A stretch of DNA of 64,000 bases from assembly GCA_964617355.1 (NCBI GenBank), contig CAZTXP010000037.1, forward strand, positions 2,270 to 66,269, given 5' to 3'. This DNA is from an uncultured Enterobacteriaceae bacterium (GTDB lineage Bacteria; Pseudomonadota; Gammaproteobacteria; Burkholderiales; SG8-39). The notes under the pieces are model-generated. The model was given only the letters and a program-made list of their open reading frames with translations, was not told the DNA's origin and did not search any database. Each line of letters opens with the position of its first letter. Position 1 is the stretch's first letter. Made by a program: the position numbers and the translations under genes. Of this stretch, positions 30,524-42,914 are shown piece after piece.

Positions 30524-30622
30524 CGCGATCGCTTGCGATTGCGCTCCACGCGAGCCCGCGATCGCTTGCGATTGCGCTCCACGCGAACCCGCGATCGCTT
30601 GCGATTGCGCTCCACGCTAGCC
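30524..30622. repeat. Three tandem 33-bp repeats, each with a hairpin
   Basis: Unit CGCGATCGCTTGCGATTGCGCTCCACGC(GAG/GAA/TAG)CC at 30524, 30557 and 30590; lies between convergent stop codons. Confidence 0.95.
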
Positions 30623-31438
30623 CCGCGCCCTGACCGCGAGGCTCTGCGTCGCGCGGCCGACGAGGCCCTCCTCGTCGAACAGGCGCGACTCGGCGAGCCC
30701 GCCACCCTCGTCGCAGAAATACGACTGCGAGTCGACGCAGATCCACTCGCCGCGCGGCACGCGCAGGAGATTGATCGTCAGGTCCGAGTTCGCGAAGGTG
30801 AACTTGCGGAAGTCGAGCACCGCGCTGATGCCGTTGCCGGAGTCGGCGGCGACCGCGACGCGCTCCAGCGGCCGCGGCGATTCGCCCGCGACCAGCGGAT
30901 GCCGCAGGCGGAACCACACGGCCGACGGCGTGCGGAACGGACGGCCGGTGGCGACGCGCGTCTGCACGAGCTCCGGGTAGCCCACCATGTCCGTGACGAT
31001 CGGCATGCGCGCCTCGACCGATTCGTCGACGCGCTTCGGCGCCTGCGGCAGCGGATGGCCGGGGACGTCCGCGGGCAGTGCGATTGCCTGCTCGCGCTGC
31101 GCCACCGCGGTGAAGCGCGCGACCTCCTTGCCCTCGGCCTCCAGGGTCGCGGCGAAATGCGCGACGCCCTTGCCGGCGTATTCGGTGCGCACCTCGAAGG
31201 CGAGTTCGCCGATCGGGATCGGCCGGATGAGGTTCGCGGTGAGGCGCGCGACGTGCGTGTACTCCATCGCCGCCGCCGCGCGCTCGATGGCGCCGCCCAC
31301 CAGCGCGATCGGCGGGCCGGCGTGCTGGTGCGCCGGGCTCCACGGCCCGCGCGTGAGTTCGGTGGCGCGATAGCGATCCCCGGCACGCTCGTACGCGCAC
31401 GCGGGGATCTTCGCGAGTTCCGTGTGCGGCGTGGTCAT
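30617..31438 (-). CDS. Thioesterase-family protein (hot-dog fold)
   Basis: TRGPWS..HQHAGPP, AADSGNG, FANSDLTINL.R.P.GEW. Confidence 0.85.
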   Translation of the reverse strand: MTTPHTELAKIPACAYERAGDRYRATELTRGPWSPAHQHAGPPIALVGGAIERAAAAMEYTHVARLTANLIRPIPIGELAFEVRTEYAGKGVAHFAATLEAEGKEVARFTAVAQREQAIALPADVPGHPLPQAPKRVDESVEARMPIVTDMVGYPELVQTRVATGRPFRTPSAVWFRLRHPLVAGESPRPLERVAVAADSGNGISAVLDFRKFTFANSDLTINLLRVPRGEWICVDSQSYFCDEGGGLAESRLFDEEGLVGRATQSLAVRARG

Positions 31439-32583
31439 CGCGCCACGAGGTCGGGCGTGATCTCGGCGAGGTTGCGCGCGCCGCAGAGCTGCATCGCGCG
31501 CACGAACTCGCCCTGCAGGATGGACAGCGCCCGCGCCGCGCCCTCCTCGCCGCCGGCCATCACGCCGTAGAGCGTCGCGCGGCCGACCTGCACCGCGGTC
31601 GCACCGAGCGCGCGCGCCTTCAGCACGTCGACGCCGCGGCGCACGCCGCTATCGACCAGCACCGGCACCTTGCCGCCCGCCCCCTGCACCACGTCGGGCA
31701 CCGCGTCCAGCGTGCCGAGCGCGCCGTCGAGCTGCCGCCCGCCGTGGTTCGACACCACGATCGCGTCCACGCCCATCGAGGCGAGGCGCATGGCGTCGTC
31801 GCCGCGCTCCACGCCCTTCACCACCAGCTTGCGGGGCCAGCGCTCGCGCAGCTTCGCCAGTTCGTCCCAGTCGAAGCTCGCATCCATCTCGCGGCCGACC
31901 GACGAGGCGACGTCGGTCGCCTTGGTCGACGACGCGACGAGGCCTTCCAGGTTCGCCATCTGCGGCATGCCGTGCCGCGCCATGTCCCAGAGCCACGCCG
32001 GCTTGGCCCACATGTCGCGCGAGTTGCGCCAGCTCGGCTTGAAGTTGGACGCGAAGTCGTTCCGGAGGTCGCGCTCGCGCTTGCCGCCCACGGGCAAGTC
32101 GACCGTCAGCACCAGTGCCTCGTAGCCCGCCGCCTCGGCGCGCGCGATCAGGCGCTCGCGCACCTTCAGGTTGCGCAGCACGTAGAGCTGGAACCAGAGC
32201 CGCCCGCCCGCCTGCTCGGCGACCTCTTCGATGGAACACATCGCCGGCGTGGCGAGCGTGAACGGGATGCCCATCGCCTTCGCCGCGCGCGCGATCATGA
32301 TCTCGGCGCCGCGCCGGCCGATGCCGATGGCGCCGGTGGGCGCGATCACGATCGGCGACGCGGCGGGGCCGCCAAGGAGTTCCAGCTTCGTGTCGACCTC
32401 GGCGACGTTCACCAGCACCTTCGGGCGCAGGCGCACGCGCTCGAAGGCCTCGCGGTTGCCGCGCAGCGTGGTCTCGTCTTCCGCGCCGCCGTCGAAGAAA
32501 TCGAAGATCGCGCGCGGCAGGCGCCGCTTCGCGATCAGCCTCAGGTCCGCGATGTTCGCGGCGTGCTTCAACGCATCCGACAT
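31435..32583 (-). CDS. FMN-dependent alpha-hydroxy acid dehydrogenase (lactate/mandelate dehydrogenase family)
   Basis: FDFFDGGAEDE, WFQLY, LTVD.P..GKRE, SNHGGRQLD, DSGVRRG. Confidence 0.92.
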   Translation of the reverse strand: MSDALKHAANIADLRLIAKRRLPRAIFDFFDGGAEDETTLRGNREAFERVRLRPKVLVNVAEVDTKLELLGGPAASPIVIAPTGAIGIGRRGAEIMIARAAKAMGIPFTLATPAMCSIEEVAEQAGGRLWFQLYVLRNLKVRERLIARAEAAGYEALVLTVDLPVGGKRERDLRNDFASNFKPSWRNSRDMWAKPAWLWDMARHGMPQMANLEGLVASSTKATDVASSVGREMDASFDWDELAKLRERWPRKLVVKGVERGDDAMRLASMGVDAIVVSNHGGRQLDGALGTLDAVPDVVQGAGGKVPVLVDSGVRRGVDVLKARALGATAVQVGRATLYGVMAGGEEGAARALSILQGEFVRAMQLCGARNLAEITPDLVAR

Positions 32584-32622
32584 GGGCCGCAGTTTACCCG
32601 CCGGCCAGGATGCACTCCTCGC

Positions 32623-33258
32623 TCAGGCGCGGCCGTACCCCTCCTGCCGCAACCTTACCGAGAGGTCGGCGCCGTTGACCACCACGCGCGCGATCGAGCG
32701 GCCGTAGCCGTCGACCGCGATCCGCCAAACCTGTACCGCGCCGCTGGAGAGCAGCTGCTGCAGCCGCGCGCGCGCCGCGGCGCCCTGCGGCGTCGAGGGA
32801 TCAAAGGTCTGCATCCCCGAGAGCACGTAGGTCACGCCACCCGCCACGAACGACGCGCCATCCACCGCGAGGAACGGCCCCGCAAGCGTGCGCCACGTGC
32901 TCGCAGCAGGGGGCGGCACCGGCGCGCCGTAGGGCGTCGGCGCAACGTAGGCGGGAGGCGGCACGTAGACCGGCGCCGGGACATAGGCCGGCGCGACGTA
33001 GGCGGGCGCCACGTAGGCGGGTGCGACGTAAACAGGACGCGGCACCACGACCACGCGCGGCGCAGAGTAGGCGACGGCCGGCGCGCCACGGTAGCTAGGC
33101 CCGTGGTGATGGTGCGAATGCGCGTGGGAGTGCGAGTGAGCGTGCGAGCCGCGCGAGGACGACCCGCCGCGCGCCGCGTGCGCTGGAACGCTGGCCACGG
33201 CGGCCGCGCCGAGCAGCGCGGCGGCGAACGCGAGGCGGTGTTTCGCTATCCCGTACAT
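32623..33258 (-). CDS. Exported protein: His/Ser-rich and VAPAY-repeat region plus degenerate thermonuclease (SNase-like) domain
   Basis: Signal peptide, HAHSHSHAHSHHHH, Pro-rich repeats, then AVDG...DGYGRSIARVVVNG.DL...L..EGYG. Confidence 0.65.
   Translation of the reverse strand: MYGIAKHRLAFAAALLGAAAVASVPAHAARGGSSSRGSHAHSHSHAHSHHHHGPSYRGAPAVAYSAPRVVVVPRPVYVAPAYVAPAYVAPAYVPAPVYVPPPAYVAPTPYGAPVPPPAASTWRTLAGPFLAVDGASFVAGGVTYVLSGMQTFDPSTPQGAAARARLQQLLSSGAVQVWRIAVDGYGRSIARVVVNGADLSVRLRQEGYGRA
32981..33025 (-). repeat. Three 15-bp coding repeats (VAPAY)
   Basis: Plus-strand units ACATAGGCCGGCGCG / ACGTAGGCGGGCGCC / ACGTAGGCGGGTGCG. Confidence 0.8.
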
Positions 33259-33387
33259 GGCGGGCATCCTAAACCCGCCGACCCCGCGGATAAGGACTTT
33301 TACAATTGCACGACGGGCACCCGCATAATGGCGCCTCCCGGCAACTGGCATGCGGCGCCGCAACAGCGGAACCGCCGCGGAGAATTC

Positions 33388-34242
33388 ATGGAAACCATCG
33401 CCTTCATCGGCACCGGCATCATGGGCGTGCGTCAGGCAGCGAACCTCGTGCGCGCCGGCCACCCGCTCGTCGCCTACTCGCGCACGCCGTCGAAGGCCGA
33501 CCCGCTCGTCGCGCTCGGCGCGACAGTCGCGCCGACGATCGCCGACGCGGTGAAGGGCGCCGACGTCGTCATCACGCTGATCGGCGCGCCGAAGGACGTC
33601 GAGGAGGTGTACTTCCAGCACGTGCTCGGCGCCGCGAAGCCCGGCGCGCTGCTCATCGACATGACCACCTCGAGCCCGAAGCTCGCCGAGAAGATCGCCA
33701 CCGCGGCCCGGGCCAACGGCCTGCGCGCGCTGGACGCGCCGGTCACCGGTGGCGAGCAGGGCGCGCGCGAAGGCACGCTCACCATCCTCTGCGGCGGCAC
33801 GCAGGAAGACTACGACGCCGCGCTGCCGATCCTGCAGCGCATGGGAAAGACGATCGCGCGCTTTGGCGGTCCCGGCGCCGGCCAGCGCGCCAAGGCGGTG
33901 AACCAGATCATCGTGCAGCAGAACGTGCTCGCCGCGGTCGAGGGCCTCGCGTTCGGCAAGCGCGCCGGGCTCGATGTCGAGGTACTGCTGCAGACGCTGC
34001 AGACCGGCACCGCGGATTCCAAGGCGCTGCGCTTCCAGGCCACGCGCGCGATCCGCGGCGACTTCACGCCCGGCTTCTACCCGGCGCATGCGCTGAAGGA
34101 CCTCGAGATCGCGATCGAGGAATCCGACGCCCTCGGCATGGACCTGCAGGGCCTGAAGAACATGCGGGACCGGTGGAAGGAACTCTTCCGGCGCTACCCC
34201 GACGCCAACTCCATTCAAGACATCATCCGCCTCTATCTCTAG
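33388..34242 (+). CDS. NAD(P)-dependent oxidoreductase, 3-hydroxyisobutyrate dehydrogenase family
   Basis: FIGTGIMG, LIDMTT, LDAPVTGG, K..NQ catalytic motif. Confidence 0.9.
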   Translation: METIAFIGTGIMGVRQAANLVRAGHPLVAYSRTPSKADPLVALGATVAPTIADAVKGADVVITLIGAPKDVEEVYFQHVLGAAKPGALLIDMTTSSPKLAEKIATAARANGLRALDAPVTGGEQGAREGTLTILCGGTQEDYDAALPILQRMGKTIARFGGPGAGQRAKAVNQIIVQQNVLAAVEGLAFGKRAGLDVEVLLQTLQTGTADSKALRFQATRAIRGDFTPGFYPAHALKDLEIAIEESDALGMDLQGLKNMRDRWKELFRRYPDANSIQDIIRLYL

Positions 34243-34250
34243 GGAACACC

Positions 34251-35168
34251 ATGGCAAAACGTCTCGAGGGCGTCCTCTCGCCCGTCATCACCCCGTTCAA
34301 GAAGGACCTCTCGCCGGACCACGACCGCTTCGTGAAGCACTGCAAGTGGCTGCTGCGTAGCGGCTGCTCCGGGCTCGCGGTGTTCGGCACCAACAGCGAG
34401 GCGAACTCGATGGCGGTCGAGGAGAAGCTCGAACTGCTGGATGCGCTGATCAAGGGCGGCGTGCCCGCCGACGCGCTGATGCCCGGCACCGGCCACTGCG
34501 CGCTCACCGACTCGGTGAAGATGACGCGCGAGGCGGTGCGCATGGGCTGCGCGGGCGTGCTGATGCTGCCGCCGTTCTACTACAAGGGCGTGCCGGACGA
34601 GGGGCTCTTCCGCAACTTCGCCGAGATCGTCGAGCGCGTGGGCGACGACCGCCTGCGCCTCTACCTGTACCACATCCCCCCGGTGGCGAACGTGCCCATC
34701 ACGCTGGAGCTGATCGACAGGCTGATCACGCGCTACCCCGGCATCGTCGTCGGCGCGAAGGATTCCTCCGGCGACTGGTCGAACACCAAGGCGGTGCTCG
34801 ATCGCTTCAAGGACCGCGGCTTCGACGTCTTCCCCGGCAGCGAGGTGTTCCTGCTCGATGGCCTGCGCGCCGGCGGCAAGGGCTGCATCACCGCGACCGG
34901 CAACGTGAACCCCGGCCCGATCAACGAAGTGTTCAAGAACTGGCGCGGCCCCGATGCGGATCGGCTTCAGGCCGGCATCACCGCGACGCGCTCGATCGTG
35001 CAGAAGGTGCCGATGATCCCGGCGCTGAAGGCGATCACCGCGCACTTCGGCAACGACCCGGCGTGGAAGACGGTGCGCCCGCCGCTCGTCGAGCTGTCGG
35101 ACGCGCACGAGAAGCAGGTGATCACCGAACTGAAGTCGGCCGGCTTCTCGATGCCGGGCCTAGCCTAA
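34251..35168 (+). CDS. DapA-like class I aldolase/lyase
   Basis: VITPF, FGTNSEA (non-canonical GTTGE), LYHIP, Schiff-base GAKDSSGD. Confidence 0.88.
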   Translation: MAKRLEGVLSPVITPFKKDLSPDHDRFVKHCKWLLRSGCSGLAVFGTNSEANSMAVEEKLELLDALIKGGVPADALMPGTGHCALTDSVKMTREAVRMGCAGVLMLPPFYYKGVPDEGLFRNFAEIVERVGDDRLRLYLYHIPPVANVPITLELIDRLITRYPGIVVGAKDSSGDWSNTKAVLDRFKDRGFDVFPGSEVFLLDGLRAGGKGCITATGNVNPGPINEVFKNWRGPDADRLQAGITATRSIVQKVPMIPALKAITAHFGNDPAWKTVRPPLVELSDAHEKQVITELKSAGFSMPGLA

Positions 35169-35172
35169 CCCC

Positions 35173-36135
35173 ATGCGCCGCGCCCTCGCCGCCATCGCGC
35201 TCGCCGCCGTCACAGGCATCGCGGGCGCCCAGGACACCTTCCCCTCGCGCACCGTGCGCATGATCGTGCCGTTCGCGCCCGGCGGCGGCATCGACGTGCT
35301 CGGCCGCGCGATCGGCCAGAAGCTCTCCGAGCGCTGGAAGCAGCCGGTGGTAATCGAGAACCGCCCCGGCGCGAGCGGCGCGATCGGCACCGAGCTCGCC
35401 GCCAAGGCGCCGGCCGACGGCTACACGCTCCTCATGTCGGTGAACACCATCGTCATGGTGCCGAGCCTCAGCCCGAAGGCGCCCTACGACCCGGTGAAGG
35501 ACTTCGCGCCGGTGTCCACGGTCGCGCTCGGGCGCCTGTCGCTGGTCGCGCATCCGTCGCTCGGCGTGAAGAGCGTCGCCGAGCTGCTTGCCCATGCGAA
35601 GAAGGACCCGGGCAAGCTGAACTACGGCTCGCCCGGCAACGGCACGCCGCACCACCTGTCGATGGAGCTCTTCAAGCAGCGCACCGGCTTCGAGATCACG
35701 CACATCCCGTACAAGGGCTCGGACGGGTTCCTGGCCGGCATCCTCTCGGGCCAGACGCAGGCGGTGTTCATGCCGATCCACCAGGCGCTGGCGCAGGTGC
35801 AGGCCGGCAAGCTGGTGATGCTCGCCGCGGGCGGCAAGGAACGCGCCTCGGTGACGCCGAACGTGCCCTCGCTCGCCGAGGCCGCCGGGATCTCCGACAT
35901 GGACGTGGACATGTGGTACGCGGCCTACCTCCCGGCCGGCACGCCGCGCGAGATCGTGCAGCGCGTGAACGCGGACATCAATGCGGTGCTGAAGATGCCC
36001 GAGGTCGCCGAGACGCTCGGCAAGCAGGGGCTCACGCCGATGGGCGGCGCGAGCGAGGCGCTCGCGGCGATCACGGTTGCCGACCTCGCGCGCTGGGCGC
36101 GGGTCATATCGAACGCGAAGATCAAGGCGGACTGA
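35173..36135 (+). CDS. Bug/TctC substrate-binding protein
   Basis: FPSRTVRMIVPFAPGGG, ENRPGASG, DGYTLL, HIPYKGS. Confidence 0.93.
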   Translation: MRRALAAIALAAVTGIAGAQDTFPSRTVRMIVPFAPGGGIDVLGRAIGQKLSERWKQPVVIENRPGASGAIGTELAAKAPADGYTLLMSVNTIVMVPSLSPKAPYDPVKDFAPVSTVALGRLSLVAHPSLGVKSVAELLAHAKKDPGKLNYGSPGNGTPHHLSMELFKQRTGFEITHIPYKGSDGFLAGILSGQTQAVFMPIHQALAQVQAGKLVMLAAGGKERASVTPNVPSLAEAAGISDMDVDMWYAAYLPAGTPREIVQRVNADINAVLKMPEVAETLGKQGLTPMGGASEALAAITVADLARWARVISNAKIKAD

Positions 36136-36137
36136 AC

Positions 36138-37376
36138 ATGCACGCGATCATCGTCGGCGGCGGCATCGGCGGGCTCACGCTCGCGCTCGCGCTGCACAAG
36201 GCCGGCATCTCCTGCAAGGTCTACGAATCCACCCCGGAGCTGCGCGCCATCGGCGTCGGCATCAACCTGCTGCCGCACTCGACGAAGGTCCTCGACGAGC
36301 TCGGCCTGCAGGACGAACTCGCACGCGTCGCCGTCACCACCAGGGAAGCGGCCTTCTTCAACCGCTTCGGCCAGTTCGTGCACCGCGAGCCCTCCGGCAC
36401 CTACGCGGGCTACCCATGGCCGCAGTTCTCGATCCATCGCGGCGACCTGCAGATGGTGCTCGCGGCCGAGGTGCAGAAGCGCCTTCCGCCCGGCACGCTG
36501 GTCACCGGCTGGAAGTGCACCGGCTTCACGCAGGACGAGCGCTCCGCGACCGCCAGCTTCGTCGACGCCGCCGGCCACGCGCTGCCGCCGCAGTCGGGCG
36601 ACGTGGTCATCGCCTGCGACGGCCTGCACTCCGTGATCCGCAAGAAACTCCACCCGGACGAAGGCGAGCCGCGCTACTCGGGCGTCAACATGTGGCGCGG
36701 CGTGACGCGCTGGAAACCCTTCCTCTCCGGCGCGAGCATGACGCGCGTCGGCTGGCTGGTGCCGGGCAAGATGGTGATCTACCCGATCCGCAACAACGTC
36801 GACGCCGAGGGCCGCCAGCTGGTGAACTGGGTAGCCGAGGTGACGACGCCCAAGTACGAGAAGCGCGACTGGAACCGCCTCGGCAAGCTGGAGGACTTCC
36901 TGCCGGTGTACGCCGACTGGAAATTCGACTGGCTCGACGTGCCCGCGTTCCTGAAGGCCTCGGACATCATCCTCGAGTTCCCGATGATCGACCAGGACCC
37001 GCTGCCGTTCTGGACCAAGGGCCGCGTCACGCTGCTGGGCGACGCCGCGCACCCGATGTACCCGCGCGGCTCCAACGGCGCCGGGCAGGCGATCCTCGAT
37101 GCGCAAGCGCTGGTCGACGCCTTCGTCGCGGAACGCGACCCGGTGCGCGCGCTCGCCGCCTACGAGGCGAAGCGCCTGCCGGCCACCTCCGAGGTGGTGC
37201 TCACCAACCGCAAGAACCCGCCCGACGCCATCCTGCGCGAAGTCTGGCAGCGCACCGGCGACAAGCCCTTCAAGAACATCGACGACGTGATCACGAAGGA
37301 CGAGATCATGGCGATCTCGGACGGCTACAAGAAGGTCGCGGGCTACGACAAGGCGGCGGTCGCCGCGGGGAGGTAG
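36138..37376 (+). CDS. Flavin-dependent monooxygenase (group A, PhzS-like)
   Basis: GGGIGG, SIHRGDLQ, DG fingerprint ACDGLHS, DQDPLPFW, LLGDAAHPMYPRGSNGAGQAILDA. Confidence 0.88.
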   Translation: MHAIIVGGGIGGLTLALALHKAGISCKVYESTPELRAIGVGINLLPHSTKVLDELGLQDELARVAVTTREAAFFNRFGQFVHREPSGTYAGYPWPQFSIHRGDLQMVLAAEVQKRLPPGTLVTGWKCTGFTQDERSATASFVDAAGHALPPQSGDVVIACDGLHSVIRKKLHPDEGEPRYSGVNMWRGVTRWKPFLSGASMTRVGWLVPGKMVIYPIRNNVDAEGRQLVNWVAEVTTPKYEKRDWNRLGKLEDFLPVYADWKFDWLDVPAFLKASDIILEFPMIDQDPLPFWTKGRVTLLGDAAHPMYPRGSNGAGQAILDAQALVDAFVAERDPVRALAAYEAKRLPATSEVVLTNRKNPPDAILREVWQRTGDKPFKNIDDVITKDEIMAISDGYKKVAGYDKAAVAAGR

Positions 37377-37378
37377 CG

Positions 37379-37744
37379 ATGGCGCAGGAACCGCTCGCGC
37401 GCAAGGGCAACTACCTGCACATCTACGACTTCAAGGTCGTGGCCGACAAGATCGACGAGTTCGTGCGCCTGTTCAACGAGTTCGACTACGGCGACGACAA
37501 TCCGATGCACAAGTCGAGCGCGCAGGTGAAGGACGGCGTGCTGGTGCAGGACGTCGCCGACCCGACGCACTTCTGGCTGGTCGCCGAGTGGGCCGACATC
37601 GAGGTGCACGCGCGCATCCGCAAGGTGCTGGTCGAGATGAAGCCCGCGTTCATCCAGCACATCGAGGGCGGCAGGTTCGTGCCCGCCTACGGCAAGGTGG
37701 TGTCTGCGACGCCACAGGAGATCCTCGACAAGGCGAAGGGCTGA
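37379..37744 (+). CDS. Dimeric alpha+beta barrel (ABM-like) protein
   Basis: 122 codons, preceded by GGGAGG; pattern F.V..DKIDEF...F, DPTHF.LVAEW.D...H. Confidence 0.6.
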   Translation: MAQEPLARKGNYLHIYDFKVVADKIDEFVRLFNEFDYGDDNPMHKSSAQVKDGVLVQDVADPTHFWLVAEWADIEVHARIRKVLVEMKPAFIQHIEGGRFVPAYGKVVSATPQEILDKAKG

Positions 37745-37803
37745 AGCACGGCCCTCGGGCGTCCGGGATCGACCCGTCTGCAAACCGAGAGGTGGACAGG
37801 ACC

Positions 37804-38667
37804 ATGACGACCCTGAAAGCGATGCTGGCCGCCGGCGACTTCGTCGTCGCGCCCGGCGTGTTCGAGATGTTCTCGGCGAAGATCGCCGACCGCATGGCCT
37901 TCAAGGCCCTCTACATGACGGGCTACGGCATCTCGGCCTCGCACCTCGGCGTGGCCGACGCCGGCCTCGTCACCTACCGCGACATGGTGGAGCGCGCGCG
38001 CACCATCGCTTCCGGCACCTCGAAGCCCTTGATCGCGGACGCCGACACCGGCTTCGGCGGCTTGCTCAACGTGCGCGAGACCGTGCGCGGCTACGAGGCT
38101 GCCGGCGTGCAGGCGGTGCAGATCGAGGACCAGGAAGTGCCGAAGAAATGCGGGCATACGCCGAACCGGCGCGTCGTGCCGCTCGCGGACGCGGTGCGCC
38201 GCATCGAGGTGGCGGTGGACGCGCGGCGCAGCACCGACACGCTCGTCATCGCGAGGACGGATGCGCGCACGGGCCTCGGGCTTGACGAAGCCATCGCGCG
38301 CGGCAAGGCCTTCGCCAAGGCCGGCGCAGACATCCTCTTCATCGAAGCGCCGGAGTCCGAGGACGAGTTCCGCCGCGTCGGAGACGCGCTGGCAGGGGAG
38401 GCGAAGCTGCTCGCCAACATGGTGCCCACCGGCAAGTCGCCGGTCGTCGCTGCGGAAAAACTCAAGGCCTTCGGCTTCTCGATCGCCATCTACCCGAGCG
38501 CCGGCATGGGCACGGCCTGCGCGGCGCTCGACGCGGCGTATCGCTACCTGCTCGAGCACGGCAGCACCGAGGGTTCGCCGGTGCCGGCCTACGACATGAA
38601 GCAGCTGCATGAACTGGTCGGCTTCCCGGACGTCTGGGACTTCGAGAAGAAATACGTCGAGCGATGA
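37804..38667 (+). CDS. Isocitrate lyase/PEP mutase superfamily lyase (2,3-dimethylmalate/methylisocitrate lyase-like)
   Basis: ADADTGFG, IEDQ..PKKCGH, ARTDA, FIEAP, ANMV. Confidence 0.9.
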   Translation: MTTLKAMLAAGDFVVAPGVFEMFSAKIADRMAFKALYMTGYGISASHLGVADAGLVTYRDMVERARTIASGTSKPLIADADTGFGGLLNVRETVRGYEAAGVQAVQIEDQEVPKKCGHTPNRRVVPLADAVRRIEVAVDARRSTDTLVIARTDARTGLGLDEAIARGKAFAKAGADILFIEAPESEDEFRRVGDALAGEAKLLANMVPTGKSPVVAAEKLKAFGFSIAIYPSAGMGTACAALDAAYRYLLEHGSTEGSPVPAYDMKQLHELVGFPDVWDFEKKYVER

Positions 38668-40043
38668 AGACGCTGTTCGCCAAGGTCTGGGACGCGCACG
38701 TGGTCGCCGACCTCGGCGGCGGCGTCGCGCTCTTGCACATCGACCGCCACCTGCAGCACGACCTCGGCGGCGGGCGCTCGCTCGAGTCGCTGCGCAAGCG
38801 GGGCCTGAAGGTGCGCAATCCCGAACTCACGTTCGCCACCGCCGACCACGTGGTCGAGACCGAACCCGGCGTGAAGGGCAGCCGGCACGACTGGGCGATC
38901 AAGCTGCTGGATTCGCTTCGCACCGAGACCAAGGCCGCGGGCGTGCGCCTCTTCGACGTCGGCGAGGACGGGCAAGGCATCGTGCACGTGGTGGCGCCGG
39001 AACTCGGCATCACCCTGCCCGGCCTCACCGCGGTCTGCGGCGACAGCCACACCTGCACCAACGGCGGCATCGGCGCGATGGGCTTCGGCATCGGCGCCAC
39101 CGAGATCGTGCACGTGCTCGCCACGCAGTGCCTCGTCCAGTCGCGGCCCAGGACCATGCGCGCGAGCTTCGACGGCGAGCGCCGCCCGGGCGTGCACGCG
39201 AAGGACCTCATCCTCGCGCTCGCCGGCCGCATCGGCACCGCGGGCGGCGTCGGCCACGCGATCGAGTACGCCGGCCCTGCGATCCGCGCGCTCGGCGTGG
39301 AGGAACGCCTCACGCTCTGCAACCTCACCGTGGAACTCGGCGCGAAGATCGGCATGGTGGCGCCGGACGCGACCACCATCGACTGGCTGCGCGGCCGCCG
39401 CTTCGCACCGAAGGATCGCGCTTTCGACGCCGCCGCCGAGCAATGGCTCGCGCTCGCCACCGACGCCGGCGCGAGCTTCGACCGCGAGGTCGCGCTCGAC
39501 GCTTCGGCGATCGCACCGCAAGTGACATGGGGCACCAGCCCCGAGGACGTCATCGCCGTCGATGGGCGCATCCCCTCGCCCGCCAGCGACGCGAAGCGCG
39601 AGGCGCTCGCCTACATGGGCCTCGACGCGGGCGCGCCGCTCGCCGGCACGAAGGTGGACCGCGTGTTCATCGGCTCGTGCACCAACTCGCGCCTGCCCGA
39701 CCTGCGCGCAGCCGCCGCCGTGGCGAAGGGTCGCAAGGTCGCGAAGCACGTGCGCGCGTGGGTGGTGCCCGGCTCGGTGGCGACGCAGCGCGCCGCCGAA
39801 GCGGAGGGCCTGCACGAAGTCTTCCGCGCCGCCGGCTTCGAGTGGCGCGACCCGGGATGTTCGCTCTGCGTCGGCGCGAACGGCGAGCTGGTCGAGCGCG
39901 AAGCGCGCTGCGTGTCGACCTCGAACCGCAACTTCGTCGGCCGCCAGGGCCCGGGCGCGCGCACGCACCTCGCGAGCCCCGTCACCGCCGCCGCGAGCGC
40001 GATCGCCGGCGTGATCGCCGACCCGAGGGAGTTCCTGTCGTGA
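38664..40043 (+). CDS. leuC: LeuC-like aconitase-family hydratase large subunit (probably a catabolic paralog)
   Basis: KTLFAKVWDAH, GDSHTCT, FIGSCTN, PGCSLC [4Fe-4S] cysteines, STSNRNF.GRQG. Confidence 0.85.
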   Translation: MKTLFAKVWDAHVVADLGGGVALLHIDRHLQHDLGGGRSLESLRKRGLKVRNPELTFATADHVVETEPGVKGSRHDWAIKLLDSLRTETKAAGVRLFDVGEDGQGIVHVVAPELGITLPGLTAVCGDSHTCTNGGIGAMGFGIGATEIVHVLATQCLVQSRPRTMRASFDGERRPGVHAKDLILALAGRIGTAGGVGHAIEYAGPAIRALGVEERLTLCNLTVELGAKIGMVAPDATTIDWLRGRRFAPKDRAFDAAAEQWLALATDAGASFDREVALDASAIAPQVTWGTSPEDVIAVDGRIPSPASDAKREALAYMGLDAGAPLAGTKVDRVFIGSCTNSRLPDLRAAAAVAKGRKVAKHVRAWVVPGSVATQRAAEAEGLHEVFRAAGFEWRDPGCSLCVGANGELVEREARCVSTSNRNFVGRQGPGARTHLASPVTAAASAIAGVIADPREFLS

Positions 40044-40648
40044 CGCCCTTCACCACGCTCACCGCGATCGCGGCGCATTACCCGAAGCCGAACGTCGACA
40101 CCGACCTCATCATCCGCGTCGAGCGCTGCGCGCAGGTGCCGAAGAACGAGCTCGGCCCCTGGGCCTTCGAGATGGCGCGCTACAAGCCCGACGGCAGCGA
40201 AAACCCGGACTTCGTGCTGAACCGCGCACCATGGCGCGAGGCCCGGATCCTCGTCGGCGCCGAGAACTTCGGCTGCGGCAGCTCGCGCGAGATGGCGGTG
40301 TGGGCGCTCGCGGGCATGGGCATCCGCTGCGTGATCGCGCCCTCGTTCGGCCAGATCTTCTTCGACAACTGCTTCCAGAACGGCCTGCTCGCGATCCGCC
40401 TGCCCGCCGACGCGCACGCCGTGCTGGCGAAGCGCGCGTCCGACCCGAGGGATTGCACCTTCACGGTGGACCTCGCCGCGCAGACCATCGACGGGCGGAT
40501 CCCGTTCGACGTCGACCCGCTGAGGAAGAAGATGCTGCTCGAGGGCCTTGACGAGATCGGCCTCACGCTGTCGCGCGAAGCCGAGATCGCCGCCTTCCAG
40601 CGCCGCGACCGCGACGCGCGGCCGTGGGTGTACGCGCCCGGCGCCTAG
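40040..40648 (+). CDS. leuD: LeuD-like hydratase small subunit
   Basis: NVDTDLII, ENFGCGSSREMA, SFGQIFF.NC.QNG, GLDEIGLTL; GTGA overlap. Confidence 0.88.
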   Translation: MTPFTTLTAIAAHYPKPNVDTDLIIRVERCAQVPKNELGPWAFEMARYKPDGSENPDFVLNRAPWREARILVGAENFGCGSSREMAVWALAGMGIRCVIAPSFGQIFFDNCFQNGLLAIRLPADAHAVLAKRASDPRDCTFTVDLAAQTIDGRIPFDVDPLRKKMLLEGLDEIGLTLSREAEIAAFQRRDRDARPWVYAPGA

Positions 40649-40667
40649 GCGAGGACCGGCCGCCTCC

Positions 40668-42914
40668 ATGCGCGACTTCGGCATCCTGCAGCCCGACGTG
40701 CTGGCCACCATCGGCTCGGCCGGCAACGCCAGCGGGCCCGATCCGCTCGGCATGGTGTTGCGCGCGATCCCGGTCTCGATCCTCGCGGTGCTCGCGACGA
40801 TGTTCGCGGTGGGCAACCAGGGCCCCTGGCTCGGGACGATCGCTACGATGCTCGCCTGGTCGGTCGCGCAGTGGCTGCTCGACCGCTCGGGCCGGCGCGA
40901 GCTGGCGCTGCTCGCGCTGGTCGCGGGCCTGTCGGTGTTCGCCGGCGTGGCCTGCGCGACGTACGGCTCGGTGCGCGGCCCCGCGAGCGCGCTCACGGTG
41001 GCCTCGGTCGCCGCGGCCGGGATCTTCCTGCGCCTGCCCTGGGTACTGGGCGCGATCGCGCTCAACCTCGGCGTCGTCGCCGCGCTGATCGCCGCCGAGG
41101 CCGCCGGCCTGATCCGCACCAGCGACATCCGGCCCAGCCCGGTGACGTGGCTGGTCTACGCCGGCGTCTGCGGCATCCTCGGCTTCGCCGCGTACCACAT
41201 GCGCTCCACGATGCGCGCGCGGCTCGAGCGCCAGATGGCCGCGGAGGCGGCACGGGCACGGGCGCAGGAGGACGCGCGCCGCAGCAGCGAGGCGCTGGAG
41301 ACCGTGTTCCGCATGGTGCCGGTGGCGCTCACGCTGTCGCGGCTCTCGGACGCGCGCGTGATCGAGGCCAACCCGGCGAACGCGGCGCACCTGGGCTACA
41401 CGCGCGAGGAGATGCTTGCGCTCGACGACGTGCGCGCGACCTGGGCCGATCCCGAGGACTACGCGCGCCTCGCGCGAGAGGTCGACTACGCGCGCCTCGC
41501 GCGCGCGGTCGACGGGCGCGGCCCCACCGCCACGATCGAGGCACGCCAGCGCACGCGCGCCGGGGACCTCGTCGACGTGCAGGCCTGGGCGGCGCGCGTC
41601 GACGTCGCCGGCGAGCCCTGCCTGCTGGTCGCGGCGATCAACGTCACCGACCGCAAGCGCGACGAGGCACTGCTCTACCGCCTCGCCGAGGGCGTCGCCG
41701 GCGCCACCGGCCAGCCGCTCTTCGCGTCGCTGGTCGAGCACCTCGCGGACGTGCTCGGCTGCGAGATCGCGTTCTGCGGCGAGGTCACCGGCCGCGGCGC
41801 GGTGCGCGCGCTCGCGCTGCGCAAGGACGGCGCGATGGCGCGCGACGCGACGCTGGACCTCGCCGGCACGCCCGACGCGCACCTGCCCTTCGACGGCAGC
41901 CCGAGCCTCACGCCCGACGGCGTGCTCGCCGCGTGGCCGGGCGCCGTCGCGCTCGACCCGCGCGTGCGAGGACACGCCGGCATGCTGTTGCGCGACGACG
42001 ATGGCGGCGCGATCGGCCTGCTCTCGGCCTACGCCTACCACCCGCTCGCGTGGTCGCCTCGCGCCGAAGCGCTGTTCCGCATCTTCGCCGCGCGCGCCGA
42101 GGCGGAGCTGCGCCACCTGCGCCGCGACCGCGAGCTGCAGGACCTGCGACGCTCGCTGGAATTGCGCGTGCGCGAGCGCACGCAGGACCTCGAGACCTTC
42201 TCGTACTCGGTGTCGCACGACCTGCGCGCGCCGCTGCGCGCGGTGAGCGGCATGTCGTCGATCCTGCGCCAGGACTTCGGCGCCACGCTCGCGCCCGCCG
42301 CGATCGGGTACCTCGACCGCATCGACCACAACGCGCTCAAGATGGGGCGGCTGGTCGACGGCCTGATCGAGTTCGCGCGCCTGGGCCTCGCGCCGCTCGA
42401 GCCGCGCGAGGTCGAGATGCGCCCGCTGGTCGAGCGCGCCGCGTCCGGCCTCGACGCCTTTGCCGACGGCCGCGTCGAGCTGCGCATCGGCACGCTGCAC
42501 CCCGCGGTGGGCGAGCCGCGCATGCTGGCGCTGGCCTGGCACCACCTGCTCGACAACGCGGCCAAGTTCTCGGCCTCGATCGGGCACCCGTGCGTGCACG
42601 TCAACTCGGAGCGACTGCCCGACGGCTGGGTGCGCTACTCGGTCGCCGACAACGGCGTCGGCTTCGACCCGGCGTACGCGCACAAGATCTTCGGCGTGTT
42701 CGAGCGCCTGCACGACGAGGCGCGATTCGAGGGCACCGGCATCGGCCTCGCGCTCGTGCGCCGCATCGTGCTGCGCCATGGCGGCACCACCGAGGCGCGC
42801 GGCGAGCCGGGCCGCGGCGCGACCCTGTCGTTCATCCTGCCGCCCGCTCAGGCCGGCGGCAGCACGATCGCGGTGTCGTCGCGGTTGCCCCACTCGCCCC
42901 ACGACGAGACGTAG
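40668..42914 (+). CDS. Membrane sensor histidine kinase (TM-PAS-GAF-HisKA-HATPase)
   Basis: Multiple TM helices, PAS (EANPA), H-box SHDLRAPL, DNAAKF, DNGVGF, GTGIGL; no response regulator in the window. Confidence 0.9.
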   Translation: MRDFGILQPDVLATIGSAGNASGPDPLGMVLRAIPVSILAVLATMFAVGNQGPWLGTIATMLAWSVAQWLLDRSGRRELALLALVAGLSVFAGVACATYGSVRGPASALTVASVAAAGIFLRLPWVLGAIALNLGVVAALIAAEAAGLIRTSDIRPSPVTWLVYAGVCGILGFAAYHMRSTMRARLERQMAAEAARARAQEDARRSSEALETVFRMVPVALTLSRLSDARVIEANPANAAHLGYTREEMLALDDVRATWADPEDYARLAREVDYARLARAVDGRGPTATIEARQRTRAGDLVDVQAWAARVDVAGEPCLLVAAINVTDRKRDEALLYRLAEGVAGATGQPLFASLVEHLADVLGCEIAFCGEVTGRGAVRALALRKDGAMARDATLDLAGTPDAHLPFDGSPSLTPDGVLAAWPGAVALDPRVRGHAGMLLRDDDGGAIGLLSAYAYHPLAWSPRAEALFRIFAARAEAELRHLRRDRELQDLRRSLELRVRERTQDLETFSYSVSHDLRAPLRAVSGMSSILRQDFGATLAPAAIGYLDRIDHNALKMGRLVDGLIEFARLGLAPLEPREVEMRPLVERAASGLDAFADGRVELRIGTLHPAVGEPRMLALAWHHLLDNAAKFSASIGHPCVHVNSERLPDGWVRYSVADNGVGFDPAYAHKIFGVFERLHDEARFEGTGIGLALVRRIVLRHGGTTEARGEPGRGATLSFILPPAQAGGSTIAVSSRLPHSPHDET
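41457..41510 (+). repeat. 27-bp in-frame tandem duplication in the kinase PAS domain
   Basis: GACTACGCGCGCCTCGCGCGAGAGGTC / GACTACGCGCGCCTCGCGCGCGCGGTC (DYARLAREV/DYARLARAV). Confidence 0.85.

What the first reader, a model, noticed from the sequence alone, without database searches (positions are those of the whole stretch)
33388..40648. Uncharacterised catabolic operon: PhzS-like monooxygenase, ABM, ICL-family lyase and LeuCD-like hydratase
Seen: eight co-oriented, tightly spaced genes (HIBADH-like reductase, DapA-like aldolase, Bug receptor, flavin monooxygenase, ABM protein, KKCGH lyase, LeuC, LeuD), with no leuA or leuB. Known: in nicotinate fermentation, LeuCD homologs (DmdAB) hydrate dimethylmaleate and an ICL-family lyase (Dml) cleaves the malate product. 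Inference: an aerobic route that oxidises an aromatic or N-heterocyclic acid to a substituted maleate, then hydrates and cleaves it; the substrate is unknown.
Basis: partly seen in the sequence, partly recalled or inferred. Interest (0 to 1): 0.6.

Follow-up and report, generated by a model that had tools for sequence, protein, structure and literature searches.

The report
Mosaic organic-acid breakdown operon
Eight tightly packed genes in a soil betaproteobacterium form a real but patchwork operon: spare copies of a leucine-synthesis enzyme and a carbon-carbon-splitting enzyme probably break down an unidentified unsaturated organic acid, while the oxygenase genes beside them look like a later, unrelated insertion.

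Summary
The ABM call is below Pfam's threshold but is supported by relatives and by fold.

The LeuCD and the lyase are paralogs. The genome has a true leuC-leuD-leuB-asd locus and a true prpB elsewhere. The window LeuC falls in a separate clade of LeuCs from catabolic contexts, and substrate loops differ in both subunits.

The array is a mosaic:
- HIBADH plus the DapA-like aldolase belong to a widespread uncharacterised core, "FMN-dependent hydroxyacid dehydrogenase | DapA-SDR".
- TctC plus the PhzS-like monooxygenase is a stand-alone two-gene module elsewhere (80% nt identity). It was never seen beside lyase or LeuCD. Here, with the ABM gene and the lyase, it occupies the place of the SDR.
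- Lyase-LeuCD is a recurrent module in Burkholderiales with no known substrate.

In relatives the locus lies among gentisate-forming enzymes. I therefore favour hydration and CoA-independent cleavage of a maleate- or alkylmalate-type acid. No comparative evidence couples the monooxygenase/ABM step to it.

This scan has flagged the lyase-LeuCD module repeatedly on other DNA. The finding is an ordinary orphan catabolic cluster of moderate interest.

The parts
31435..32583 (-). FMN-dependent (L-)2-hydroxyacid dehydrogenase, LldD/mandelate-dehydrogenase-like. It is a divergently oriented, conserved neighbour of the DapA-like gene.
   Evidence: PF01070 at 433.8 bits. NCBIfam L-lactate dehydrogenase subfamily at 336 bits, below the 376 cut-off. 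It is 57-58% identical to the FMN_dh in the same position in G144, G006 and G012. It lies upstream in 13 of 14 metagenome loci whose DapA-like gene is at least 72% identical.
32623..33258 (-). SNase-like gene lying between FMN_dh and g1. It is a lineage-specific insertion, not part of the pathway.
   Evidence: Homologs occupy the same position only in the closest contigs: L134 (72%), L135 (61%) and L191 (36%). It is absent from G012, G144 and G006.
33259..33387 (+). 129-nt intergenic region, the likely promoter region of the array.
   Evidence: It is the only sizeable gap upstream of g1. By eye it contains TTACAA, 18 nt, then CATAAT. The consensus scan found no promoter, so this is inference only.
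33388..34242 (+). g1: beta-hydroxyacid dehydrogenase (HIBADH / tartronate-semialdehyde-reductase-like).
   Evidence: PF03446 plus PF14833. Best NCBIfam match is TIGR01505 at 223 bits, below the 340.75 cut-off. Orthologs of 66-94% sit upstream of DapA in G012, L134, L135 and L140.
34251..35168 (+). g2: DapA/NAL-family class I aldolase-type enzyme. It is not DapA itself.
   Evidence: PF00701 at 127.7 bits. The dapA equivalog scores 115 bits, below the 206 cut-off. Lys170 in GAKDSSGD, Tyr140 and GTNSE are invariant in orthologs. Orthologs of 72% identity or more are followed by an SDR in 22 of 26 loci.
35173..36135 (+). g3: TctC/Bug periplasmic receptor, first gene of an inserted TctC-FMO module.
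   Evidence: PF03401 at 211 bits. Window 35252-37350 is 80% nt identical to stand-alone TctC-FMO pairs in L030 and L215. TctC of 64-80% identity sits directly upstream of the FMO in 10 of 19 family loci.
36138..37376 (+). g4: class A FAD monooxygenase, PhzS-like (PRK07538 subfamily).
   Evidence: NF005720 at 575 bits, above the 400 cut-off. PhzS structures 2rgj/3c96 score 315 bits. Of 80 ortholog loci at 62-72% identity, none has lyase, LeuC, LeuD or g5 nearby.
37379..37744 (+). g5: small ABM-fold (ferredoxin-like) protein.
   Evidence: PF03992 at E 0.004, below threshold. About 900 homologs at 68-96% identity, some carrying PF03992. AF2 model has pLDDT 86 and Foldseek hits are LsrG and ABM proteins. 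Homologs in G012, G134 and G034 are not beside FMO, lyase or LeuCD.
37804..38667 (+). g6: ICL/PEP-mutase-family C-C lyase (PrpB/Dml/petal-death-protein-like). It is not PrpB.
   Evidence: PF13714 at 144.9 bits. TIGR02317 scores 250 bits, below the 354 cut-off. The true prpB is at G000:C57 and scores 410 bits. KKCGH and DADTG are present. Window 37823-40633 is collinear with lyase-LeuC-LeuD of G012 and L143 at 74-75% nt identity.
38664..40043 (+). g7: LeuC-type Fe-S hydro-lyase large subunit, a catabolic paralog.
   Evidence: PF00330 at 508 bits. TIGR00170 scores 573 against a cut-off of 560, whereas the genome's biosynthetic LeuC scores 777. Cluster cysteines C339, C399 and C402 are kept. HEVTSPQAF is replaced by HDLGGGR. 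It falls in a clade separate from biosynthetic LeuC.
40040..40648 (+). g8: LeuD-type small subunit, a paralog.
   Evidence: NF002458 at 217 bits. TIGR02087 (LeuD/DmdB type) scores only 67 bits, below the 109 cut-off. GCGSSRE is kept. The loop DTDxIIRVERC replaces DTDQIIPKQFLK, and a 9-residue insert is missing.
40668..42914 (+). g9: PAS-type sensor histidine kinase, 19 nt downstream. Adjacent, but probably not part of the pathway.
   Evidence: HisKA plus HATPase_c. No such gene follows LeuD in any related locus.

Best explanation
The array is a recently assembled mosaic operon built from three units.

(1) g7/g8 plus g6 form a CoA-independent "add water, then split" module. The LeuCD paralog is a [4Fe-4S] hydro-lyase. 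It hydrates a cis-unsaturated di- or tricarboxylate (maleate or alkylmaleate type), or isomerises a 2-substituted malate, to a (2R)-hydroxy acid. The ICL-family lyase then cleaves the C2-C3 bond, giving glyoxylate or pyruvate plus a short carboxylic acid.

(2) g1/g2, together with the divergent FMN dehydrogenase at 31435-32583, are what remains of a separate and much more widespread unit, FMN_dh | (TctC)(HIBADH) DapA-SDR. That unit probably cleaves a 4-hydroxy-2-oxo acid to pyruvate plus an aldehyde and then reduces or oxidises the products. In relatives LeuCD is fused onto this unit.

(3) g3/g4 (TctC plus PhzS-like monooxygenase) is a self-contained import-and-hydroxylate module. Together with the ABM gene and the lyase, it occupies the place where the nearest relative has only the SDR. 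Nothing shows that it feeds the lyase/LeuCD step.

The most likely source of the unsaturated acid is ring fission of gentisate-type aromatics (maleylpyruvate to maleate or alkylmaleate).

Shown: gene identities, paralogy, the mosaic structure and the recurrence of the modules. Inferred: all substrates and all reaction directions.
For: Paralogy:
- True leuC-leuD-leuB-asd lies at G000:C181.
- True prpB lies at G000:C57.
- g7 sits in a clade (support 96/96) with LeuCs from catabolic contexts, apart from the biosynthetic clade (support 98/100).
- Substrate loops are changed in both subunits while catalytic residues are kept.

Mosaic structure:
- The nearest contig, L135, is collinear at 82-85% nt identity over HIBADH-DapA and over LeuCD. 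It has only an SDR where the window has TctC-FMO-ABM-lyase.
- TctC-FMO is 80% nt identical to stand-alone pairs.
- 0 of 80 FMO loci carry lyase or LeuCD.
- Among loci whose DapA-like gene is at least 72% identical: an SDR follows in 22 of 26, FMN_dh lies upstream in 13 of 14, LeuC is present in 5 of 17, lyase in 1 of 17, and a g4-like FMO in 0 of 17.

Module recurrence:
- Lyase-LeuCD occurs in G012, L143, Variovorax, Paraburkholderia, Cupriavidus and Burkholderia replicons.
- Related LeuCDs pair instead with a LeuB-like dehydrogenase (Methylobacterium) or with a CoA-transferase plus an HMG-CoA-lyase-like enzyme (Novosphingobium). These are alternative ways of disposing of a hydroxy-acid product.

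Gentisate context in relatives:
- A 3-hydroxybenzoate 6-monooxygenase equivalog lies beside FMN_dh.
- A salicylyl-CoA 5-hydroxylase equivalog is convergent with LeuD.
- A gentisate 1,2-dioxygenase equivalog lies 22-25 kb away in G006, G012 and G188. In G012 and in the own genome's copy on contig C6, the genes following it are not FAH-family or maiA-type.
Against: - No enzyme here was assayed, and no substrate is identified.
- In this genome the gentisate dioxygenase is on another contig. The salicylyl-CoA hydroxylase homolog is about 22 kb downstream, after an insertion.
- LeuCD is translationally coupled to DapA-SDR without any lyase in most relatives. A lyase-independent role for LeuCD (rival 2) is therefore at least as old as the lyase pairing.
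- The tight spacing of all eight genes (2-8 nt across the module junctions) would fit selection for co-expression. Functional coupling of the FMO is therefore not excluded.
- That the known maleate hydratase HbzIJ is LeuCD-like is my recollection.
Confidence: 0.5

Rival explanations
1. An aromatic or N-heterocyclic carboxylate is imported via TctC and oxidised by the PhzS-like monooxygenase and the ABM protein to a substituted maleate. LeuCD then hydrates it and the lyase cleaves it. All eight genes serve one substrate.
For: - All genes are co-oriented with 2-59 nt gaps and no internal terminator-like site.
- A close relative at 89% nt identity (L134) also has the FMO after DapA, so the arrangement has persisted.
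- In G012 the g5 homolog sits just upstream of a maleyl-isomerase (maiA) equivalog and after Mo-hydroxylase subunits. This is a ring-fission-product context.
- Relatives carry a different class A hydroxylase (3HB6H equivalog) beside the cluster.
Against: - No ring-cleaving dioxygenase, amidase or deformylase is in the array.
- TctC-FMO orthologs are stand-alone pairs or single genes in 80 of 80 loci, with no lyase or LeuCD nearby.
- g5 homologs elsewhere are not beside the FMO.
- Orthologous clusters work with an SDR and no FMO.
Confidence: 0.17
2. A leucine-pathway-like degradative chain for a hydroxylated branched di- or tricarboxylate, such as a 2-(1-hydroxyalkyl)malate like hydroxycitrate, or 4-oxalomesaconate-type acids. 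LeuCD isomerises or hydrates the substrate. The product is either oxidatively decarboxylated (by the SDR in relatives) to a 4-hydroxy-2-oxo acid, which the DapA-like aldolase splits into pyruvate plus glyoxylate or an aldehyde, or it is cleaved directly by the lyase (in this genome). HIBADH and FMN_dh handle the aldehyde or hydroxy-acid products.
For: - DapA-SDR-LeuC-LeuD are joined by 1-nt gaps in L135 and recur in G144, G006, G188, L140, L144 and L151.
- A related LeuCD is followed by a LeuB-like dehydrogenase in Methylobacterium.
- TctC receptors fit tricarboxylates.
- DapA-like homologs of about 60% identity sit beside aldehyde or hydroxyacid reductases in sugar-acid contexts.
- g2 shows distant similarity to human 4-hydroxy-2-oxoglutarate aldolase (77 bits).
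Against: - This is purely chemical reasoning. No literature on such a pathway was found.
- The DapA-SDR core exists without LeuCD in most loci (12 of 17).
- The SDR is missing in this genome and has no ortholog elsewhere in it.
Confidence: 0.2
3. g7/g8 is simply a second, redundant isopropylmalate isomerase for leucine biosynthesis, and the neighbours are irrelevant.
For: g7 and g8 pass the leuC and leuD NCBIfam cut-offs (573 vs 560 bits, and 167 vs 116 bits).
Against: - The genome has a canonical leuCDB-asd locus whose LeuC scores 777 bits.
- g7 lies outside the biosynthetic clade.
- The conserved substrate-site motifs are replaced.
- Orthologs are patchy, found in 9 of 401 genomes of the order.
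- g7 overlaps the lyase gene by 4 nt.
Confidence: 0.03

Closest known systems
DmdAB (2,3-dimethylmaleate hydratase) plus Dml (2,3-dimethylmalate lyase) of Eubacterium barkeri nicotinate fermentation
   Same: A two-subunit aconitase-family hydro-lyase is paired with an ICL/PEP-mutase-family lyase that carries the K-x-C-G-H loop. The logic is the same: hydrate a substituted maleate, then split the malate without CoA. The A. niger Dml structure 3fa3 is among the best solved relatives of g6 (172 bits).
   Different: g7/g8 are bacterial LeuCD-type: TIGR00170/00171 score 573/167 bits, against 67 bits for the LeuD/DmdB-type model. No other nicotinate-fermentation genes are present. The host is an aerobic betaproteobacterium. 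g6 is roughly equidistant from PrpB, Dml, petal death protein and OAH.
Maleate hydratase HbzIJ of the direct-hydrolysis gentisate pathway (Liu, Xu & Zhou 2015, listed as ref. 2 in PMC12294151)
   Same: HbzIJ hydrates a ring-fission-derived maleate to D-malate. That it is a LeuCD-like two-subunit enzyme is my recollection. In relatives the cluster is flanked by gentisate-forming hydroxylases and lies 22-25 kb from a gentisate dioxygenase.
   Different: No sequence comparison with HbzIJ was possible. Here the hydratase is coupled to an ICL-family lyase, which is not described for hbz. In this genome the gentisate dioxygenase is on another contig.
Biosynthetic isopropylmalate isomerase LeuCD (EC 4.2.1.33)
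   Same: Same fold and subunit organisation. Fe-S cysteines and catalytic motifs are retained. About 52% (LeuC) and 44% (LeuD) identity to the genome's own biosynthetic copies.
   Different: Separate clade. Substrate-site segments are altered. There is no leuB neighbour. Taxonomic distribution is patchy.
Methylisocitrate lyase PrpB
   Same: Same family, with KKCGH and DADTG motifs and a similar length. B. pseudomallei PrpB 3eoo scores 177 bits.
   Different: Below the PrpB equivalog cut-off (250 vs 354 bits). The genome's real prpB scores 410 bits and is only 38% identical. No prpC, prpD, acnD or prpF is nearby.
PhzS (5-methylphenazine-1-carboxylate 1-monooxygenase) of Pseudomonas aeruginosa
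   Same: It is the best solved relative of g4 (315 bits). Both are class A FAD monooxygenases, and the FAD motifs are conserved.
   Different: No phenazine genes are nearby. g4 belongs to a very large family: at least 7996 proteins with E <= 1e-50, and 107 of 301 genomes of the host family. In betaproteobacteria it is typically paired with a TctC receptor.

Membership tests
DmdAB/Dml system (nicotinate fermentation) | Small subunit of the LeuD/DmdB (archaeal-type) family | tested here: not met
   TIGR02087 scores 67 bits against a cut-off of 108.95. Bacterial LeuD models score 217 and 167 bits.
DmdAB/Dml system (nicotinate fermentation) | ICL/PEP-mutase-family lyase with the catalytic K-x-C-G-H loop, adjacent to the hydratase | tested here: met
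   PF13714 at 144.9 bits. KKCGH is present. The g6 stop overlaps the g7 start by 4 nt.
DmdAB/Dml system (nicotinate fermentation) | Accompanying nicotinate-fermentation genes (nicotinate dehydrogenase, enamidase, mutase and others) | tested here: not met
   None is among the genes from 30617 to 42914.
Biosynthetic LeuCD (IPMI) | Passes the leuC/leuD equivalog models | tested here: met
   573 vs 560.25 bits (marginal) and 166.9 vs 116.25 bits. The genome's other copy scores 777 and 272 bits.
Biosynthetic LeuCD (IPMI) | Groups with biosynthetic LeuC of related genomes | tested here: not met
   In the ML tree the biosynthetic clade has support 98/100. g7 lies in a different clade with support 96/96.
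Biosynthetic LeuCD (IPMI) | Only copy in the genome, or linked to leuB | tested here: not met
   leuC-leuD-leuB-asd lies at G000:C181.
Methylisocitrate lyase PrpB | Reaches the TIGR02317 equivalog cut-off | tested here: not met
   250 bits against a cut-off of 354.4. The C57 copy scores 410 bits.
Maleate hydratase HbzIJ | Sequence relationship to HbzI/HbzJ | not testable with these tools
   No HbzIJ sequence could be fetched, and the paper (PMC4551245) is not held.
Maleate hydratase HbzIJ | Genomic link to a gentisate pathway that lacks a maleylpyruvate isomerase | tested here: inconclusive
   In G006, G012 and G188 a gentisate dioxygenase equivalog lies 22-25 kb from the cluster. maiA lies elsewhere in G006, G144, G188 and the own genome; G012 also has maiA-type hits on the same contig, 30 kb and 400 kb from the cluster. 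In the own genome the dioxygenase is on another contig.
ABM (antibiotic biosynthesis monooxygenase) superfamily | Pfam PF03992 gathering score | tested here: not met
   17.8 bits against a cut-off of 23.1, E 0.0039. Some homologs of 68-73% identity do carry PF03992.
ABM (antibiotic biosynthesis monooxygenase) superfamily | Ferredoxin-like beta-alpha-beta fold of about 100 residues | tested here: met
   AF2 model with pLDDT 86 and a strand-helix-strand-strand-helix-strand order. Foldseek hits are LsrG, SnoaB and putative ABMs, with TM 0.5-0.63.
PhzS-like class A flavoprotein monooxygenase (PRK07538) | Reaches the NF005720 cut-off and has conserved FAD motifs | tested here: met
   575 bits against a cut-off of 400. 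GGGIGGL and GDAAHPM are invariant.
PhzS-like class A flavoprotein monooxygenase (PRK07538) | Phenazine-biosynthesis context | tested here: not met
   No phz genes were found in the window array or in the annotated FMO neighbourhoods.
DHDPS/NAL class I aldolase family | Pfam PF00701 plus the Schiff-base lysine and catalytic Tyr/Thr | tested here: met
   127.7 bits. K170, Y140 and T47 are invariant in orthologs. The dapA equivalog cut-off is not met (115 vs 206 bits).
Tripartite tricarboxylate transporter receptor (TctC/Bug) | Pfam PF03401; membrane partners TctA/TctB in the genome | tested here: met
   211 bits. Four TctA matches lie elsewhere in the genome, none in the window array. There are more than 150 TctC-like hits genome-wide.

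The most novel reading that the evidence does not exclude
The lyase-LeuCD paralog pair is the missing genetic basis for CoA-independent disposal of maleate or alkylmaleates released from (alkyl)gentisate ring fission. The sequence would be hydration to D-(alkyl)malate by a bacterial-type LeuCD paralog, followed by direct aldol-type cleavage by an ICL-family lyase. Here the pair would have been recruited into an operon with an aromatic-carboxylate import and hydroxylation module.
Probability: 0.2. Interest if true: 0.55.

Novelty: new variant of a known kind. Interest (0 to 1): 0.36.

Why it matters
Automatic annotation labels these genes as leucine biosynthesis (leuC/leuD), methylisocitrate lyase and dihydrodipicolinate synthase. 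All three labels are wrong for this locus.

The lyase-LeuCD pair and the FMN_dh | DapA-SDR core are each conserved across many soil Burkholderiales. Neither has a published function. Identifying their substrates would close gaps in models of organic-acid and aromatic carbon turnover in soil.

This window adds a clear natural example of module swapping, with an SDR exchanged for TctC-FMO-ABM-lyase. It does not by itself reveal a new kind of system.

Tried and rejected
The contexts of the closest FMO homologs (84-88% identity; P0007, P0011, P0012) could therefore not be read.
- Literature searches gave nothing that assigns a function to this cluster. Searches covered maleate hydratase with isopropylmalate, LeuCD with methylisocitrate lyase, PhzS with TTT, hydroxycitrate catabolism, IPMI paralogs, 2-aminobenzoyl-CoA monooxygenase, and citraconate with LeuCD.
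- The HbzIJ paper and the Hopper 1970 paper are not held.
- g5 is unrelated to the 187-aa protein that occupies a similar position in G012. That protein has a signal peptide.
- FMO neighbours in alphaproteobacteria (DsbB, cytochrome b561, HNH and housekeeping genes) gave no functional hint.
- The promoter consensus scan found nothing, as expected at 71% GC.
- I did not attempt a residue-level substrate prediction for the lyase. My memory of the PrpB, Dml and OAH specificity residues is not reliable enough.
- The idea that this is the genome's only leuCD is rejected.

Full report
**What is there.**
The region is 67-74% GC. Codon-position GC analysis plus start-codon inspection resolve eight + strand genes that span exactly the reported 33388-40648. 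Gaps between successive genes are 8, 4, 2, 2 and 59 nt, followed by two 4-nt overlaps.

Pfam and NCBIfam confirm:
- a HIBADH-family dehydrogenase (g1);
- a DHDPS/NAL-family enzyme (g2);
- a TctC receptor (g3);
- a class A FAD monooxygenase (g4), whose best solved relative is PhzS (315 bits);
- an ICL/PEP-mutase-family lyase with KKCGH (g6);
- LeuC (g7) and LeuD (g8).

The 121-aa g5 is below Pfam's ABM threshold. It nevertheless belongs to a family of about 900 close homologs, some of which carry PF03992. Its model (pLDDT 86) matches ABM-fold structures.

No + strand terminator-like site interrupts the array. A PAS histidine kinase follows after 19 nt.

**Are LeuCD and the lyase housekeeping genes?**
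No. The genome (G000; 210 contigs, 96% complete) has leuC-leuD-leuB-asd on contig C181. That LeuC scores 777 bits on the leuC model, against 573 bits (cut-off 560) for g7, and the two are 52-53% identical. A true prpB scoring 410 bits lies on C57, while g6 scores 250 bits against a cut-off of 354.

Four relatives that carry a g7 ortholog each also have a biosynthetic LeuC that is 82-84% identical to the one on C181.

In a maximum-likelihood tree, the biosynthetic LeuCs form one clade (support 98/100). g7 sits in another clade (support 96/96) with LeuCs from catabolic contexts.

The paralogs keep the three cluster cysteines, the DSH and STSNRNFxGRQG motifs, and GCGSSRE in LeuD. They replace HEVTSPQAF with HDLGGGR-like sequences, replace the LeuD loop DTDQIIPKQFLK with DTDxIIRVERC, and lack a 9-residue insert.

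By HMM score they are bacterial-type LeuCD, not the LeuD/DmdB type.

**The array is a mosaic.**
Orthologs of the LeuC paralog are rare: 9 of 401 genomes of the order.

In same-family genomes the arrangements are:
- G144, G006 and G188: FMN_dh (divergent) | DapA-like - SDR - LeuC - LeuD.
- G012: TctC - HIBADH - TctC - DapA - SDR - small exported protein - TctC - lyase - LeuC - LeuD.

A scan of metagenome contigs with the DapA-like protein gave 80 loci. Among those with at least 72% identity:
- an SDR follows in 22 of 26;
- the FMN dehydrogenase lies upstream in 13 of 14;
- LeuC is present in 5 of 17;
- the lyase is present in 1 of 17;
- a g4-like monooxygenase is present in 0 of 17.

The window has the same FMN dehydrogenase at 31435-32583 on the minus strand. 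It is 57-58% identical to those of the relatives. An inserted SNase-like gene separates it from g1.

DNA comparison fixes the breakpoints:
- Contig L135 is collinear with the window at 85% nt identity over g1-g2 and at 82% over g7-g8. It has only an SDR of about 690 nt where the window has 3.5 kb (g3-g6).
- Window 35252-37350 (g3-g4) is 80% nt identical to stand-alone TctC-FMO pairs.
- Window 37823-40633 (g6-g8) is collinear with lyase-LeuC-LeuD of G012 and L143 at 74-75% nt identity.

The genome has no ortholog of the SDR.

**The monooxygenase module.**
g4 belongs to a very large family. It is present in 107 of 301 genomes of the host family. That tally includes the unpublished genomes G442 and G607. 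One locus used, L233, is from G442.

In 80 genome loci with orthologs of 62-72% identity, none has lyase, LeuC, LeuD or g5 within 10 kb. In betaproteobacteria a TctC gene commonly abuts the FMO: 10 of 19 family loci, with TctC 64-80% identical to g3. The flanks of these pairs are unrelated to one another. In alphaproteobacteria the gene sits among housekeeping genes.

g5 homologs in three other genomes are not beside FMO, lyase or LeuCD. In G012 the g5 homolog lies between Mo-hydroxylase subunits and a maiA-type isomerase.

**The hydratase-lyase module.**
Lyase-LeuCD recurs in several replicons:
- Variovorax paradoxus VAI-C: GntR | lyase-LeuCD-TctC-PrpF.
- Paraburkholderia sp. 22B1P: lyase-LeuCD, beside a PrpD-family gene.
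- Cupriavidus sp. EM10 and Burkholderia sp. THE68.

Related LeuCDs are coupled to other enzymes instead:
- a LeuB-like dehydrogenase in Methylobacterium aquaticum;
- a CoA-transferase plus an HMG-CoA-lyase-like enzyme, next to an FAH-family hydrolase, in a Novosphingobium PAH cluster.

The common reading is that the LeuCD paralog produces a hydroxy-di- or tricarboxylate. That product is then removed by direct aldol-type cleavage, by oxidative decarboxylation, or by CoA-dependent cleavage. Earlier notes of this scan describe the same module on other DNA and also left the substrate open.

**Where the substrate may come from.**
In relatives:
- The FMN dehydrogenase is followed by a 3-hydroxybenzoate 6-monooxygenase equivalog (505-522 bits, cut-off 459).
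- LeuD is convergent with a bifunctional salicylyl-CoA 5-hydroxylase/oxidoreductase equivalog (1133 bits, cut-off 1078), plus a CoA ligase, RidA and a 3-hydroxyacyl-CoA dehydrogenase.
- A gentisate 1,2-dioxygenase equivalog lies 22-25 kb away in G006, G012 and G188.

In the own genome's copy, and in G012, the dioxygenase operon continues with an alpha/beta hydrolase and a transglutaminase-like gene (own: TctC-GDO-hydrolase-transglutaminase-like). It contains no FAH-family hydrolase or maiA-type isomerase. In G006, G144, G188 and the own genome, maiA lies on another contig; G012 also has maiA-type hits 30 kb and 400 kb from the cluster on the same contig.

This fits the direct-hydrolysis gentisate route, in which maleate is hydrated to D-malate. 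D-malate as an aromatic-degradation intermediate, and the existence of a specific maleate hydratase, are cited in PMC12294151. That this hydratase is LeuCD-like is my recollection.

In this genome the synteny is broken. The dioxygenase is on contig C6.

**Verdict.**

The proposed upstream oxidation by the PhzS-like enzyme and the ABM protein has no comparative support, and those genes look like an inserted independent module.

The HIBADH and DapA-like genes belong to yet another conserved, uncharacterised unit, whose SDR was lost here. Substrates remain unknown.

This is a new variant of a known enzymatic logic (DmdAB/Dml-like, HbzIJ-like). It is not a member of those families, and it is of moderate interest.

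Noticed in passing
window 31435-32583 (-) and related loci L024, L119, L121, L135-L171: An FMN-dependent 2-hydroxyacid dehydrogenase, transcribed divergently from a (TctC)-DapA-like-SDR unit, is a strongly conserved and apparently uncharacterised gene set in soil Burkholderiales metagenomes (FMN_dh upstream in 13 of 14 loci, SDR following in 22 of 26). It often sits beside a 3-hydroxybenzoate 6-monooxygenase equivalog.
   Followed up: partly
window 62952-64000 (-), cut by the window end: This is the C-terminal part of a FAD-monooxygenase plus old-yellow-enzyme fusion. It is 72% identical to a protein in relatives that reaches the NCBIfam equivalog for bifunctional salicylyl-CoA 5-hydroxylase/oxidoreductase. 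In relatives that gene is convergent with LeuD. Here about 22 kb, including the histidine kinase and the integron cassette array, has been inserted between them.
   Followed up: partly
window 35173-37376; loci L030-L034, L215-L227: TctC receptor plus PhzS-like FAD monooxygenase is a conserved two-gene unit with unrelated flanks in many betaproteobacteria. This suggests an import-and-hydroxylate (possibly detoxifying) function for an unknown carboxylate. The monooxygenase stays 62-73% identical across alpha- and betaproteobacteria and Myxococcales.
   Followed up: partly
L134 (metagenome contig, 89% nt identical to window 32622-35193): In this close relative, DapA is followed directly by sequence matching window 36081-36218. 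Most of the TctC gene g3 is therefore absent while the monooxygenase is retained.
   Followed up: no
G012:C12:948000-952000 (L131 8629-11711): The g5 (ABM-fold) homolog of G012 sits between Mo-hydroxylase subunits (MoCoBD; Fer2/CoxG) and a maiA-equivalog maleyl isomerase plus an EamA exporter. This is a possible N-heterocycle or aromatic ring-fission context for this small protein family.
   Followed up: no
G000:C172:14361-15838 (own genome, outside the window): A third LeuC/LeuD-like pair of the shorter, archaeal/HacA-like type, 35% identical to g7. It forms a very long branch in the LeuC tree. Its context was not examined.
   Followed up: no
G000:C6:4852-8452 and G012:C12:523000-526000: The gentisate 1,2-dioxygenase equivalog is in an operon TctC-GDO-alpha/beta hydrolase-transglutaminase-like protein, with no FAH-family hydrolase or maleylpyruvate isomerase. 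The alpha/beta hydrolase may be an unrecognised maleylpyruvate hydrolase.
   Followed up: no
whole genome G000: There are more than 150 TctC/Bug-like tblastn hits but only four TctA matches, one of them carrying an internal TAG. This is the Bordetella-like excess of orphan receptors.
   Followed up: no
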